Positions 12,373 through 15,254 of a stretch of DNA of 64,000 bases are shown here, in pieces. The notes beneath the pieces are model-generated. The model had not been told where the DNA came from, made no database searches, and was given only the letters and a program-made list of their open reading frames with translations. Origin of the DNA: a virus; IMG/VR virus record IMGVR_UViG_3300017991_000052. One strand, 5' to 3'. Position numbers and translations under genes: made by a program. Every line of letters starts with the position of its first letter. The first letter of the stretch is position 1.

Positions 12373-15254
12373 ATGGGTTTAGAGAAAGCTCTTTCTAGTG
12401 CCGTAGGTCAAGGCGGAGATACAATTATCCCTCAGCTTGCTGATCAGATAATTCCATTTATTCGTCAAAAGTCTTATTTAAGACAATTCCTACAAAGTTT
12501 CACTATGCCTACAGAAACATATCGTTTTCCTAAGTTAACACAAGGGAATTCTGTATATTATGTGGGTGAAGCTGCAAGTGCACCTGAGAGTTTAATGACT
12601 ACAGGAACTATCGAACTTAATGCTAAAAAGCTTATGGTTGCGTTAGCAATTTCTGCTGAGTTAGAAGAAGATGCTGTTGTTCCTATCGTACCGGTTGTCC
12701 GTGACGATATGGCAAAAGCATTCGCTCTTGCTGAAGAAAACGTATTCATCAATGGTGATACGACTCATACAGCGACTCAAACAGATCCTGCTTCTGCTAC
12801 AGAAGCGGATTGGTGTTTTACACGCCAATGTAAAACCCTGAAGAATTGCTGGAAAGTCTTAAAGTCTATCTACTACAACGTAATTTCTTATATAGAAGTA
12901 AGCGTGAATTGTTTGAAAAATGATAGAATTATGCAATTTGCATAAATAGACAATCAGCAGCCGAGCCCGAAAGGGAAGGTTCAGAGACTATGTATCGGGG
13001 ATGTTTAACAAAACATAAGATATAGTCCGAACTATATGGAGACATATAGAATTATCCAGAAATGAGATAATCTTTAAATAGAATATGGGGTTAAGATAAG
13101 AAGTCATGAGCTTATCGATGGAGCCCAAACTCCAAACCCCACCAATCTTTTGGGAGGTTGAAATGAATGAATTCGTTATATGTGAAATTTGTAGTCAGAA
13201 ACTAAAAAGAATTACAAATACTCATTTAAAGCAACATAATCTAACATTTAAAGAATATATTGAATTATACCCTAATTCAAATACAACTTCTAAAATTGTT
13301 AGAGATAAAATAAGTAAAAACGGAAAAGGAATAACAGGAAGAAAAGCAGGATTTAAGCATAACAAAAAGCATAAAAAGTTAATAAGTAATTTAATGAAAA
13401 ATAGAAAAATTACTTGGAAAGATAAGATAAGAGAGACAATTCAAGATTATTACGATAATAATACTTTAATTGGATGGAAAAGTAAAGAATGTTATGAAAA
13501 TAAGCCAGAATATATGAAGAATATATTCTATGGGAATGAATGGCTGAGTATTCGGTCAAAAGTTAAACAAAGAGATAAATTTATTTGTCAAGATTGTAAA
13601 AAGAAAGAAAATAAATTAGCTGTTCATCACATAATTCCTTTTAAGCATTACTTATTAAAGCACAATGGTAGTTTAGAAAAAGCTAGAAAAGACGCACATA
13701 AATTGAAAAACTTAATTACCTTATGTTTTAGCTGTCACATGAAAAGAGAAAGACGAATTCAAAAATCTATTTAATAGTAACAAAATTGATGTAAACGACC
13801 ACAGATTGGCGTTTAATGGTTTGAGAAAAGTTGCTTGTGGTACTCAGGTAGACGCTGGATCTGGTGCTCTTACTCTTGCTGATATCTCTACAGGTATTCA
13901 AAATTTAGACGTTTTCGGACGTGATAAATCAGAACTTCTGTTAGTTGTATCTTTGAGAGAAGAAAACACTTTGAGACAGTTGTTAGGTATCAACCTTGCT
14001 GTTAACCAGCTTGGATTAACTGGTACTGCACTTCCGGGTGAAATCGGTAGACACAGTAAATTACCCAATTACTTTGCCGATTTAAAAACTCGTAAATTCG
14101 GTGGAACTCCAGAAATGGACAATACCGAGCCAAGCCTTGTAATTAAATTACTCGGAAGGTGTAGAGACTATACACGAGTCATTTTAGAAAATATTTCTAA
14201 AATTGAAGATATAGTCCGAACTGCATATAAATCATTAATGATGAAATTGCAGAGCATAGCAGAAATGACTATGCCTCAAGAATTTAATATGGGTCTAAGT
14301 TTAGCCTAATTAACTAAACGACGGTGCTTGTATCACCAAGACCCACCTAATCTTATACAAGGAGATTAAAATGGTTGCAAAAGGTTCTAAATTATCAGAG
14401 GAAACAAAAAGAAAAATAAGTGAAAGTGTAAAGAAAAAGTTTAAAGAAAGTCCTGAAATTATTGAAAATGGTGTTAAAAAATGGAAAAAATTTTTTAATA
14501 CAAAAGAAGGAAAAATAATTTGGGAAGAAAAAAATAAAAAAGTTAGTAATACAATGAAAGGAATTAAAAAGAAGCCTTTCACTAAAAAACACAAAGAAAA
14601 CATAAGCAAAGCAACAAAAAGACAATATAAAGAAATGTTTCCTTGGGGTAAACGAAAATCATCAAAAATTCATTTAAAGTTACAAAAACAATTATATAAA
14701 TACACTGATAATTTTATATCAGAAGAATTTATAAGATTAAAAGAATTAGAAAAATGGATTTGTGTTGATGAACTTGATAGAAAAAATAAAATTGCAATAT
14801 TTATAGATGGCGAACATTGGCACGCAAGAAATTATAAAGATAATTATATTGTTCGACCTCTAAATAAAACTGCAAAAGAAATAAGAAATAAAGACAAGAT
14901 AGAAACAAAATGTCTTATTTCAAAAGGATATCAAGTTTTAAGATTTTGGGATACCGAAATTGAAAGTAATTTAGAACAATGTATTAATAAAATTCTTGAA
15001 GTAACAAAATGAAAGTATGGGGCGTTCCAGTTGTAGCAACAAACTTATTGAGGGTTAGTGATACTAATACTTCAGAAGCTCTGTTGTTAAATAGAAACGC
15101 TGCGGTTATCGGCGACAGACGTATTTTCACTATCAAGTCTTCGGATGAGGTATTGTTACGTTCTGACCAGTTGTTAATCGTTGCTTCTGAAAGATTGGCA
15201 TTTAATGCACAATACTGTGAAGCAATCACTAAGATCGTTAACATCGCTAGCTAA
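12373..15254 (+). CDS. Major capsid protein, HK97 fold, spliced: join(12373..12814,13789..14048,15012..15254), 314 aa
   Basis: Joined exons are in frame (442+260+243=945 nt): ...ATEADW-Y-VNDHRLAFNGLRK... and ...LPGEIG-KVWGVPVV...; IELNAKKL, FALAEENVFINGD and G.PV capsid motifs. Confidence 0.92.
13086..13160 (+). ncRNA. Three-way-junction/kissing-loop RNA over the RBS of the intron 1 endonuclease
   Basis: TGGGGTT/AACCCCA, GATAAG/CTTATC, TGGAG/CTCCA and CAATCT/AGGTTG stems; loops CCCAAA and TTTGGG are complementary. Confidence 0.7.
13163..13774 (+). CDS. Intron-encoded HNH homing endonuclease (Zn-finger plus NUMOD3-like plus HNH)
   Basis: CEIC..HLKQH; RDKFICQDC..VHHIIPF..NLITLCFSCH; start reassigned from 13106 to ATG 13163 after GGAGG. 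Confidence 0.9.
   Translation: MNEFVICEICSQKLKRITNTHLKQHNLTFKEYIELYPNSNTTSKIVRDKISKNGKGITGRKAGFKHNKKHKKLISNLMKNRKITWKDKIRETIQDYYDNNTLIGWKSKECYENKPEYMKNIFYGNEWLSIRSKVKQRDKFICQDCKKKENKLAVHHIIPFKHYLLKHNGSLEKARKDAHKLKNLITLCFSCHMKRERRIQKSI
14049..15011 (+). mobile_element. Group I self-splicing intron 2 in MCP gene
   Basis: P1 AAATCGGT/GCCGATTT; AATTCGGTGGAA, AATACCGAG, GGTGTAGAGACTA (14158) and AAGATATAGTCC (14206); terminal G 15011; P10 TACTTT/AAAGTA. Confidence 0.92.
14290..14368 (+). ncRNA. Three-way-junction/kissing-loop RNA over the RBS of the intron 2 endonuclease
   Basis: TGGGTCT/AGACCCA, GTTTAG/CTAAAC, GGTG/CACC and TAATCT/AGATTA stems; loops CTTGTAT and ATACAAG are complementary. Confidence 0.7.
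14371..15012 (+). CDS. Intron-encoded endonuclease (NUMOD3 plus Vsr/DUF559-like PD-(D/E)xK)
   Basis: LSEETKRKISES; VDEL..IAIFIDGEHWH..KDK..GYQVLRFW. Confidence 0.88.
   Translation: MVAKGSKLSEETKRKISESVKKKFKESPEIIENGVKKWKKFFNTKEGKIIWEEKNKKVSNTMKGIKKKPFTKKHKENISKATKRQYKEMFPWGKRKSSKIHLKLQKQLYKYTDNFISEEFIRLKELEKWICVDELDRKNKIAIFIDGEHWHARNYKDNYIVRPLNKTAKEIRNKDKIETKCLISKGYQVLRFWDTEIESNLEQCINKILEVTK

What the first reader, a model, noticed from the sequence alone, without database searches (positions are those of the whole stretch)
12373..15254. Major capsid gene split by two endonuclease-bearing group I introns
Seen: both introns have P1 with U.G, P10, canonical core motifs and near-identical 3' ends (AGTAACAAAATTG / AGTAACAAAATG). 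The exons join to a clean 314-aa MCP, and the middle exon is only 260 nt. Established: phage group I introns are mostly described in DNA-metabolism, terminase and lysin genes. Inference: the most abundant virion protein depends on two splicing events, and similar intron ends could permit exon-2 skipping, which would be out of frame.
Basis: partly seen in the sequence, partly recalled or inferred. Interest (0 to 1): 0.72.

Follow-up and report, generated by a model that had tools for sequence, protein, structure and literature searches.

The report
Capsid gene split by two introns
The only major capsid gene of this uncultured ~150-kb phage is interrupted by two genuine self-splicing group I introns, each carrying its own homing-endonuclease gene; this is a solid new example of a known kind of mobile element, and relatives of the phage show the same gene is an intron hot spot (up to 16 introns in one copy).

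Summary
Rfam's group I intron model hits twice in the whole 152-kb record, both in this gene (80.7 and 63.6 bits, cut-off 50). Introns 12815-13788 and 14049-15011 have a U.G splice-site pair in P1, a 6-bp P10 and a terminal G. Joining the exons gives a 314-aa HK97-type capsid protein that aligns without gaps at either junction to intron-less homologues (about 85% identity). Their DNA runs straight across both sites.

Intron 1 carries an HNH endonuclease. Intron 2 carries a NUMOD3 plus Vsr/DUF559-type endonuclease, whose stop codon straddles the 3' splice site. Both introns have same-site orthologues in other environmental phages, with compensatory changes in P1, P10 and the core helices.

The shared 3' end is a family-wide motif and gives no particular support for exon skipping. 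Capsid-gene group I introns are already published (Tuc2009, mycobacteriophage LittleE, crAss-like phages), and this scan has noted many on other DNA. The window feature is therefore a new member of a known kind.

Beyond the window, this clade's capsid gene has about 25-29 insertion sites. One relative carries 16 introns in a 918-nt coding sequence, with exons as short as 11 nt.

The parts
12373..12814 (+). Capsid gene exon 1 (codons 1-147 plus the first base of codon 148; the last base is the splice-site U)
   Evidence: Pfam Phage_capsid PF05065, 81.8 bits, E 7e-23. It is collinear with intron-less homologues. An intron-less allele, L004, runs straight across the site.
12815..13788 (+). Intron 1, group I, 974 nt, phase 1 in codon 148. 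The internal guide is 12824-12829 (P1 partner of 12809-12814), the P10 guide is 12817-12822, and the terminal G is 13788.
   Evidence: RF00028, 80.7 bits; P1, P10 and terminal G; recovered by my spliced-alignment program. Same-site orthologues are L135 1386-2342 and the 3' part of L083.
12985..13027 (+). Intron 1 catalytic core: the two P7 strands (GACUA ... GAUAUAGUC) with P3'/P8 between them
   Evidence: The core motif occurs only twice in 64 kb and only twice in the 152-kb record, once in each intron. See also the Rfam alignment.
13074..13082 (+). 5' strand of the 9-bp helix that closes the ORF-bearing loop of intron 1 (pairs with 13766-13774)
   Evidence: Exact 9-nt complement; intron 2 has the same arrangement.
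13163..13774 (+). Intron 1 endonuclease gene: 203 aa, with an N-terminal Ros/MucR-like CX2C...HX3H finger and a C-terminal HNH nuclease. GGGAGG lies 5 nt before the ATG.
   Evidence: Pfam HNH, 30.7 bits against a cut-off of 21.4; ROS_MUCR E 2.8e-4. Thirteen PHROG HNH families match. The orthologue in L135 is 59% identical and intact.
13775..13788 (+). Conserved 3' tail of intron 1 (UAGUAACAAAAUUG), ending in the terminal G
   Evidence: The tail is conserved across the whole family.
13789..14048 (+). Capsid gene exon 2, 260 nt (rest of codon 148 to codon 234)
   Evidence: Collinear alignment and spliced alignment. There is no Pfam hit on this piece alone.
14049..15011 (+). Intron 2, group I, 963 nt, phase 0 after codon 234. 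The internal guide is 14076-14083 (P1 partner of 14041-14048), the P10 guide is 14070-14075, the P7 core is 14165-14216, and the terminal G is 15011.
   Evidence: RF00028, 63.6 bits; P1 of 8 bp and P10 of 6 bp. Same-site orthologues are L020 1599-2520 and L133 3706-4619. RNAalifold on the three gives 91 pairs, 24 with compensatory changes.
14276..14285 (+). 5' strand of the 10-bp helix that closes the ORF-bearing loop of intron 2 (pairs with 14990-14999)
   Evidence: Exact 10-nt complement.
14371..15012 (+). Intron 2 endonuclease gene: 213 aa, with an N-terminal NUMOD3-type helical region and a C-terminal Vsr/DUF559-type nuclease. Its TGA stop straddles the 3' splice site (TG in the intron, A in exon 3).
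   Evidence: Pfam DUF559, 34.1 bits against a cut-off of 20.6. Of 45 aligned relatives, 44 match DUF559, 39 match Vsr and 24 match NUMOD3. The AF2 model has pLDDT 89. Best fold matches are Vsr 1cw0 and I-Bth0305I 3r3p. Orthologues are 63-64% identical and intact.
15012..15254 (+). Capsid gene exon 3 (codons 235-314 plus the stop)
   Evidence: Pfam Phage_capsid, 29.3 bits, profile positions 202-279; collinear alignment.

Best explanation
The sole major capsid gene of this phage is transcribed as a precursor of about 2.9 kb containing two mobile group I introns, and both must be removed by RNA self-splicing before the 314-aa HK97-type capsid protein can be made. In each intron, the last bases of the upstream exon pair with an internal guide sequence to form P1, with the splice-site U opposite a G. 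The conserved P3-P9 core binds a free guanosine, which attacks that site (inferred from the family). The terminal G (13788, 15011) then docks, the guide's 5' part holds the downstream exon through a 6-bp P10, and the exons are ligated.

Each intron carries its endonuclease gene in a large loop downstream of P9. A 9-10-bp helix closes that loop, so the 14-nt conserved 3' tail is brought back to the core. The two ribozyme scaffolds are homologous, but their passengers are unrelated: an HNH enzyme in intron 1 and a NUMOD3 plus Vsr/DUF559-type enzyme in intron 2.

The endonucleases most likely cut intron-less capsid alleles of related phages during co-infection, so that repair copies the intron in (homing). 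This is inferred. It would explain why intron-plus and intron-less alleles coexist, why the same intron sits at the same site in diverged phages, and why this conserved essential gene collects introns across the clade.
For: Shown by computation:
- There are two RF00028 hits above the gathering score, the only ones in the record.
- P1 with U.G, P10 and a terminal G are present in both introns.
- The exons join to a product collinear, without junction gaps, with 13 homologues, four of them 313-316 aa and about 85% identical.
- Intron-less alleles are contiguous at the DNA level across both sites.
- My spliced-alignment program recovers the same boundaries.
- Only one PF05065 gene exists in the 152-kb record.
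- Same-site orthologues exist: intron 2 in L020 and L133, intron 1 in L135 and L083.
- These orthologues show a compensatory P1 change (exon C to A with guide G to U in L133), a compensatory P10 change (UACUUU/AAAGUA to AACUUU/AAAGUU in L020), and 24 of 91 consensus pairs with double changes.
- Both endonuclease ORFs are intact, have strong ribosome-binding sites, and are conserved at 59-64% identity in the orthologues.
- The nuclease families are supported by Pfam, PHROG and fold comparison.
- The ribozyme parts of the two introns align, while the ORFs do not.

Established knowledge: the group I splicing chemistry and endonuclease-driven homing, as in T4 td/nrdB/nrdD.
Against: There is no RNA evidence. 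Splicing, its efficiency and its order are not shown. The exon reading frames run on into the introns, 43 codons into intron 1 and 86 codons through the whole core of intron 2. Ribosomes could therefore disturb folding, and how this is avoided is unknown. The RF00028 alignment placed its P1 for intron 1 on an exon hairpin rather than on the true P1, so the P1 call for intron 1 rests on my own reading; its 6 bp are not rare by a shuffle control (99 of 500). Endonuclease activity and target sites are inferred only. The record is a metagenomic assembly rated 85% complete, so a second capsid gene in the missing part cannot be fully excluded.
Confidence: 0.9

Rival explanations
1. The introns are decayed relics that no longer splice. 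On this reading the gene is a pseudogene in a defective or mis-assembled genome, or the capsid is built from another protein.
For: No RNA data exist. The record is only 85% complete. The exon 2 frame reads through the whole core of intron 2.
Against: Both cores score well above the Rfam cut-off. The exons carry no lesions and stay 85% identical to intact homologues. Same-site orthologues keep their helices through compensatory changes. Both endonuclease ORFs are intact and conserved. No second PF05065 gene is found. The flanking head genes are intact.
Confidence: 0.05
2. The insertions are free-standing endonuclease genes that split the capsid gene into three separately translated pieces, which assemble without being joined (a split gene, as with some T4-like nrdA or gene 39/60 cases).
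For: Gene callers list the fragments as separate ORFs, e.g. P0001 of 190 aa. Phage genes split by homing endonucleases are known (established knowledge).
Against: Exon 1 ends in the middle of codon 148 (phase 1). Exons 2 and 3 have no ribosome-binding site or sensible start at their beginnings. Complete group I cores with a matching P1, P10 and terminal G lie exactly at the boundaries. The boundaries match intron-less alleles to the base.
Confidence: 0.02
3. Splicing does occur, but it is also regulatory. Either exon-2 skipping or slow removal of one intron is used to time or limit capsid protein synthesis, or to make a truncated 147-aa product.
For: Skipping would give a stop right after W147. 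[quoted passage not shown] The 3' tails of the two introns are nearly identical.
Against: The tail is common to the whole intron family. Intron 1's P10 guide does not match exon 3. Intron-less relatives make the same protein with no such device, so any regulation is dispensable.
Confidence: 0.03

Closest known systems
Phage T4 td, nrdB and nrdD (sunY) group I introns carrying I-TevI, I-TevII and I-TevIII
   Same: These are self-splicing group I introns in an essential phage gene, each carrying a homing-endonuclease ORF in a peripheral loop. Related ribozymes carry unrelated endonuclease families. Intron-plus and intron-less alleles coexist among relatives (PMC2988022).
   Different: The host gene here is the major capsid gene, not a nucleotide-metabolism gene. 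Two introns sit in one gene. Both ORFs lie downstream of P9 and run to, or across, the 3' splice site. One endonuclease is a Vsr/DUF559 type, which T4 introns do not have.
Capsid-gene group I introns: lactococcal phage Tuc2009, mycobacteriophage LittleE (RT-PCR and N-terminal sequencing proved splicing), and crAss-like Delta/Zeta phages (capsid gene in up to five fragments)
   Same: A group I intron, often with an HNH endonuclease, interrupts the major capsid gene of a tailed phage, so the most abundant virion protein depends on splicing (PMC3706429, PMC7886860).
   Different: The phage lineage is unrelated: about 150-180 kb, 31% GC, and at most 32% capsid protein identity to any deposited phage. 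LittleE has one intron, with its endonuclease gene on the opposite strand. The crAss cases were identified by protein domains only. In the present clade the gene has about 25-29 insertion sites and one copy with 16 introns.
Staphylococcus phage Twort orf142 (three group I introns in one gene, exon skipping) and Bastillevirinae DNA polymerase genes (two or three introns)
   Same: Several related group I introns lie in one phage gene with short exons between them, which raises the question of how 5' and 3' splice sites are paired correctly (PMC11878797; reference lists).
   Different: The host genes differ. Exon skipping is not shown here, and the guide sequences argue against it.
I-Bth0305I (EDxHD family), a phage group I intron homing endonuclease with a Vsr-like catalytic domain (PDB 3r3p)
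   Same: The intron 2 protein's C-terminal domain gives Vsr (1cw0) and I-Bth0305I (3r3p, TM 0.71 over the target) as its best fold matches. It too is encoded in a phage group I intron.
   Different: No similarity is detectable by sequence search against PDB chains. The Pfam assignment is DUF559/Vsr/MTES_1575. The DNA-binding part is NUMOD3-like. I could not test whether it carries the EDxHD motif in register.

Membership tests
Group I self-splicing intron (Rfam RF00028) | Covariance-model score at or above the curated gathering score | tested here: met
   80.7 and 63.6 bits against a cut-off of 50; E 6e-19 and 8e-14.
Group I self-splicing intron (Rfam RF00028) | P1 helix between the 5' exon end and an internal guide, with the splice-site U paired to G | tested here: met
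   Intron 1: AUUGGU with GCCAAU, 6 bp. Intron 2: AAAUCGGU with GCCGAUUU, 8 bp; only 2 of 500 shuffles do as well. A compensatory exon/guide change is seen in the L133 orthologue.
Group I self-splicing intron (Rfam RF00028) | Terminal G at the 3' end and a P10 pairing of the guide with the 3' exon | tested here: met
   G at 13788 and at 15011, with a 6-bp P10 in each intron. A compensatory P10 change is seen in L020.
Group I self-splicing intron (Rfam RF00028) | Conserved core helices (P3-P9) maintained by covariation | tested here: met
   Three same-site orthologues of intron 2 give 91 consensus pairs, 24 with double compensatory changes, and P7 is invariant. For intron 1 there is only one full orthologue, 85% identical over the ribozyme part, so that test is weaker.
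Group I self-splicing intron (Rfam RF00028) | Guanosine-dependent self-splicing of the RNA | not testable with these tools
   This needs in vitro transcription and splicing, or RNA-seq.
Mobile intron (homing) | Intron-plus and intron-less alleles at one precise site among relatives, with the same intron at the same site in diverged genomes | tested here: met
   Intron-less loci are L004, L005, L009-L011 and L072. Same-site orthologues are L135 and L083 for intron 1, and L020 and L133 for intron 2.
Mobile intron (homing) | The intron-encoded endonuclease cuts the intron-less allele | not testable with these tools
   This needs a cleavage assay on the joined-exon sequence.
HNH homing endonuclease | HNH nuclease motif with CxxC...CxxCH zinc ligands, plus a separate DNA-binding module | tested here: met
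   Pfam HNH, 30.7 bits against a cut-off of 21.4, residues 142-197. The motif CQDC...HH...N...CFSCH is visible. There is an N-terminal Ros/MucR-like finger, and 13 PHROG HNH families match.
Vsr-like / DUF559 nuclease (as in the EDxHD enzyme I-Bth0305I) | Vsr-type catalytic fold with the conserved acidic and histidine residues | tested here: met
   DUF559, 34.1 bits against a cut-off of 20.6. D133, G147, H151 and D175 are invariant in 45 relatives. Foldseek gives 1cw0 at E 2.5e-3 and 3r3p at E 3.9e-3, TM 0.71, probability 1.0. The fold E-values are weak, so the assignment rests on agreement between the profile and the fold.
Vsr-like / DUF559 nuclease (as in the EDxHD enzyme I-Bth0305I) | EDxHD signature in register with I-Bth0305I | tested here: inconclusive
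   No sequence-level match to 3r3p. I made no residue-by-residue superposition.
HK97-fold major capsid protein (Pfam Phage_capsid PF05065) | Profile match over the whole domain and collinearity with full-length family members | tested here: met
   Exon 1 matches profile positions 1-121 (81.8 bits) and exon 3 matches positions 202-279 (29.3 bits). The spliced product is collinear with 313-316-aa homologues. It is the only PF05065 gene in the record and lies just downstream of a Peptidase_S78 prohead protease gene.

The most novel reading that the evidence does not exclude
The window's two introns are the modest end of a clade-wide phenomenon. In this group of uncultured ~150-180-kb phages the 0.9-kb capsid gene is a group I intron hot spot with about 25-29 distinct insertion sites. 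Copies range from intron-less to one with 16 introns and 17 exons (IMGVR_UViG_3300032053_000045; 7.8-kb gene, 88% intron, exons of 11, 13, 14 and 18 nt). That is more than the four intervening segments in one phage gene, and more than the 14 introns in a whole phage genome, described as unprecedented in the papers I found. In the 11-nt exon, the bases needed for the upstream intron's P10 and the downstream intron's P1 overlap. The two splicing reactions could then not proceed independently and would have to follow an order.
Probability: 0.65. Interest if true: 0.75.

Novelty: new member of a known kind. Interest (0 to 1): 0.42.

Why it matters
For this window, the result mainly fixes the annotation. 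Gene callers report a 190-aa capsid fragment and miss the real 314-aa protein, so the phage would look as if it lacked an intact capsid gene. It also adds a well-supported case in which the most abundant virion protein depends on two ribozymes, and a second phage-intron example of a Vsr-type homing endonuclease.

The wider pattern is the more interesting part. One small, essential, conserved gene collects introns at some 25-29 sites, and one copy carries 16. That gives a natural system for three questions: how introns spread when most copies lack an endonuclease gene, how a cell-free ribozyme cascade pairs the right splice sites across 11-nt exons, and whether intron endonucleases that target the capsid gene act as weapons between co-infecting phages, as shown for a PhiPA3 intron endonuclease (PMC11620839).

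Tried and rejected
- A tblastn search of exon 1 against 50,697 deposited phage genomes found no relative above 32% identity, so there is no cultured reference.
- A phmmer search of the intron 2 protein against PDB sequences found nothing at E up to 1. The fold route was needed instead.
- RF00028, even at a relaxed E-value, missed the ORF-bearing introns of relatives L007, L012 and L014 and two of the three in L016. A simple P7 core motif showed that those introns hold the ribozyme core at their 3' end, with the ORF upstream of it. My first regular expression for that motif was faulty.
- An exact-pattern scan of IMG/VR for the 11-nt exon with its flanks returned only the source contig and one chance match with no capsid gene. 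The 16-intron arrangement therefore has no independent assembly.
- My spliced-alignment program over-calls short 'introns' of 150-340 nt, with no P7 motif, in diverged or truncated loci (all calls in L079; some in L086, L089 and the start of L020). I rejected these and counted only insertions that contain the core motif.
- The promoter and terminator scan of 12200-15400 gave nothing above shuffle expectation that bears on endonuclease expression.
- The exon hairpin at 12788-12808, which Rfam aligned as P1, is not conserved in homologues, so I treat it as chance.
- I did not assign a group I subgroup (IA, IB or IC), because no subgroup models were on hand.
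Full report
**What is in the window.** The region 12373-15254 contains three pieces of one capsid gene separated by two insertions. Rfam's group I intron model RF00028 matches at 12784-13049 (80.7 bits) and 14007-14235 (63.6 bits), against a gathering score of 50. The same search of the whole record finds only these two. That record is an IMG/VR virus contig of 152,375 b, 30.8% GC, rated 85% complete. A core motif made of the two P7 strands, GACUA ... GAUAUAGUC, also occurs exactly twice in the record, once in each intron.

**Boundaries.**
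- Exon 1 ends at U12814 and intron 1 ends at G13788. Exon 2 ends at U14048 and intron 2 ends at G15011.
- P1 of intron 1 pairs 12809-12814 with 12824-12829 (6 bp, terminal U.G). P1 of intron 2 pairs 14041-14048 with 14076-14083 (8 bp, terminal U.G).
- The bases just 5' of each guide pair with the start of the next exon to form P10: 12817-12822 with 13790-13795, and 14070-14075 with 15012-15017, 6 bp each.
- Rfam aligned its P1 for intron 1 to an exon hairpin at 12788-12808. That hairpin is not conserved in homologues, so I read it as chance.
- The joined exons are 945 nt and encode 314 aa. Exon 1 and exon 3 match Pfam Phage_capsid positions 1-121 and 202-279.

**Test against relatives.**
- A protein search with exon 1 found full-length intron-less homologues of 313-316 aa at about 85% identity. 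The spliced product aligns to 13 homologues with no gap at either junction (DW|YVND and PGEIG|KVWG).
- At the DNA level, intron-less alleles L004 and L005 run straight across both sites.
- I wrote a spliced-alignment program that is told only that exons end in T and introns end in G. It returns exactly 12815-13788 (codon 148, phase 1) and 14049-15011 (after codon 234, phase 0). It finds no intron in the intron-less loci.
- The record holds no other PF05065 gene.

**The passengers.**
- Intron 1 encodes a 203-aa protein (13163-13774). It has a Ros/MucR-like zinc finger at the N-terminus and an HNH nuclease at the C-terminus.
- Intron 2 encodes a 213-aa protein (14371-15012). Its C-terminal domain matches DUF559, Vsr and MTES_1575, and its N-terminus has a weak NUMOD3 match.
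- A search of 1.8 billion representative proteins gave 823 relatives of the intron 2 protein. Of 45 that I aligned, 44 match DUF559, 39 match Vsr and 24 match NUMOD3.
- An AlphaFold model (pLDDT 89) has Vsr (1cw0), the intron homing endonuclease I-Bth0305I (3r3p, TM 0.71) and a DUF559 protein (3hrl) among its best fold matches. The E-values are weak, around 3e-3.
- Both ORFs lie in a large loop downstream of P9. A 9- or 10-bp helix closes each loop: 13074-13082 with 13766-13774, and 14276-14285 with 14990-14999.
- The stop codon of the intron 2 ORF straddles the 3' splice site, and the same is true of its orthologue in L020.
- The ribozyme parts of the two introns align, including the stretch leading up to each ORF's ribosome-binding site. 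The two proteins are unrelated.

**Same-site orthologues and covariation.**
- Intron 2 recurs at the identical site in L020 and L133, with endonuclease orthologues 63-64% identical.
- Intron 1 recurs in L135 (957 nt, same codon and phase, endonuclease 59% identical). The 3' part of another copy is in L083.
- In L133 an exon change in P1 (C to A) is matched by a G to U change in the guide.
- In L020 the P10 guide and the exon change together.
- RNAalifold on the three intron 2 copies predicts 91 pairs, 24 with compensatory double changes. One predicted hairpin pairs the endonuclease's Shine-Dalgarno sequence. This agrees with another first-reader note on this stretch. I did not pursue it.

- The shared 3' end is a family trait. 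A tail of the form A(A/G)UAA(C/U)A, then a few bases and G, ends the introns of L020 and the introns of a relative described below. What the tail does is unexplained.
- Exon-2 skipping would be out of frame and would stop after W147. Intron 1's guide does not fit exon 3, so nothing here favours skipping.
- Group I introns in capsid genes are already published: Tuc2009 and LittleE, the latter with splicing proved by RT-PCR and protein sequencing (PMC3706429), and crAss-like phages whose capsid gene is in up to five fragments (PMC7886860).
- Notes from this scan report capsid-gene introns in many other genomes, including one copy with ten introns. I did not check those notes.

**Beyond the window.**
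- Capsid-gene loci of relatives carry group I cores at many other positions. L014 has insertions at codons 22 and 108. L012/L013 have one at codon 80. L007 has them at codons 15, 46 and 55, L081 at codon 31, L088 at codons 100, 125 and 223, L089 at codon 298 and L136 at codon 145.
- In several of these the ORF lies upstream of the core, which is why RF00028 misses them.
- The extreme case is IMGVR_UViG_3300032053_000045, a 73.8-kb contig. Every group I hit in that record falls in the capsid gene.
- My spliced alignment of that gene, plus inspection of its 3' end, gives 16 introns and 17 exons over 7,780 nt. Three introns are 1.1-1.3 kb and carry ORFs. Thirteen are 226-295 nt and ORF-less.
- The exons measure 14, 11, 53, 13, 18, 28, 43, 92, 34, 73, 54, 344, 28, 30, 25, 39 and 19 nt. 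Joined, they give an uninterrupted 305-aa protein with 266 of 306 residues identical to an intron-less homologue.
- Each of the 16 introns contains one P7 core motif. The 15 that my splice-site script examined end in G and have a 4-8-bp P1 starting 9-19 nt into the intron. I read the 16th by eye: it ends in G and has a 4-bp P1 at about +14.
- The introns fall into subfamilies 67-81% identical to each other, so they are not recent copies.

**Caveats on the 16-intron gene.**
- It is a single metagenomic assembly, and I found no independent copy.
- Exons of 11-30 nt are shorter than the word lengths assemblers use. Neighbouring introns must therefore have been seen together in single reads. This is inference, not a test.

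**Verdict.** The observation and the main interpretation are correct. The feature in the window is a new member of a known kind. The hot-spot behaviour of this gene in the clade, and the 16-intron copy, are the parts a specialist would find surprising. They lie outside the window and need RNA and long-read confirmation.

Noticed in passing
L069 1853-9632 (= IMGVR_UViG_3300032053_000045, contig positions ~38352-46131; also L016, L085): The capsid gene of a relative is interrupted by 16 group I introns, giving 17 exons with four of 11-18 nt; 88% of the gene is intron. The exons join to an intact 305-aa protein that is 87% identical to an intron-less homologue. All group I hits of that 73.8-kb record lie in this one gene.
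   Followed up: partly
L014, L012/L013, L007/L075, L006/L074, L081, L086/L087, L088, L089, L134-L136 (capsid-gene loci of relatives): Group I introns with a P7 core sit at about 25-29 different codon positions of the same 314-codon gene across the clade, and some sites are shared between diverged phages (codons 24, 80, 100, 125, 148, 234). In many of these introns the endonuclease ORF lies upstream of the ribozyme core, so RF00028 does not detect them.
   Followed up: partly
window 13775-13788 and 14999-15011; 3' ends of all introns in L069 and L020: A conserved 3'-terminal tail, A(A/G)UAA(C/U)A plus 2-6 nt and G, follows the last hairpin in the introns of this family whose 3' ends I inspected, with or without an ORF. 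I could not identify its pairing partner or role.
   Followed up: partly
L020 537-1331: The endonuclease in another capsid-gene intron (site at codon 153/154) combines two copies of the Ros/MucR-like finger of the window's intron 1 protein (38-54% identity) with a DUF559 nuclease like that of the intron 2 protein (31%). DNA-binding and nuclease modules have evidently been shuffled among these intron proteins.
   Followed up: no
window 21167-21643 (+): A free-standing 158-aa ORF among the structural genes is 32% identical over 124 aa to the Vsr/DUF559 nuclease part of the intron 2 endonuclease. There is no group I core nearby, so it may be a free-standing homing endonuclease.
   Followed up: no
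window 14049-14309 and 12815-12945: The exon reading frames stay open into the introns: 86 codons through the whole ribozyme core of intron 2 (the L133 orthologue reads on for 73 codons) and 43 codons into intron 1. Ribosomes following the polymerase could enter the cores, and how splicing escapes this is unclear.
   Followed up: no
window 14304-14375 and 13090-13165 (alignment A4, columns 256-333): A conserved, covarying multi-helix structure lies between the loop-closing helix and each endonuclease start codon, and its last hairpin pairs the Shine-Dalgarno sequence. This looks like translational control of the endonucleases. Another first-reader note covers it.
   Followed up: partly
window 10285-12261 (+): The gene just upstream of the capsid gene is a 658-aa fusion. 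It has a prohead protease (Peptidase_S78 in the relatives' copies), a long acidic low-complexity middle, and two CxxC...CxxC zinc-ribbon-like motifs.
   Followed up: no
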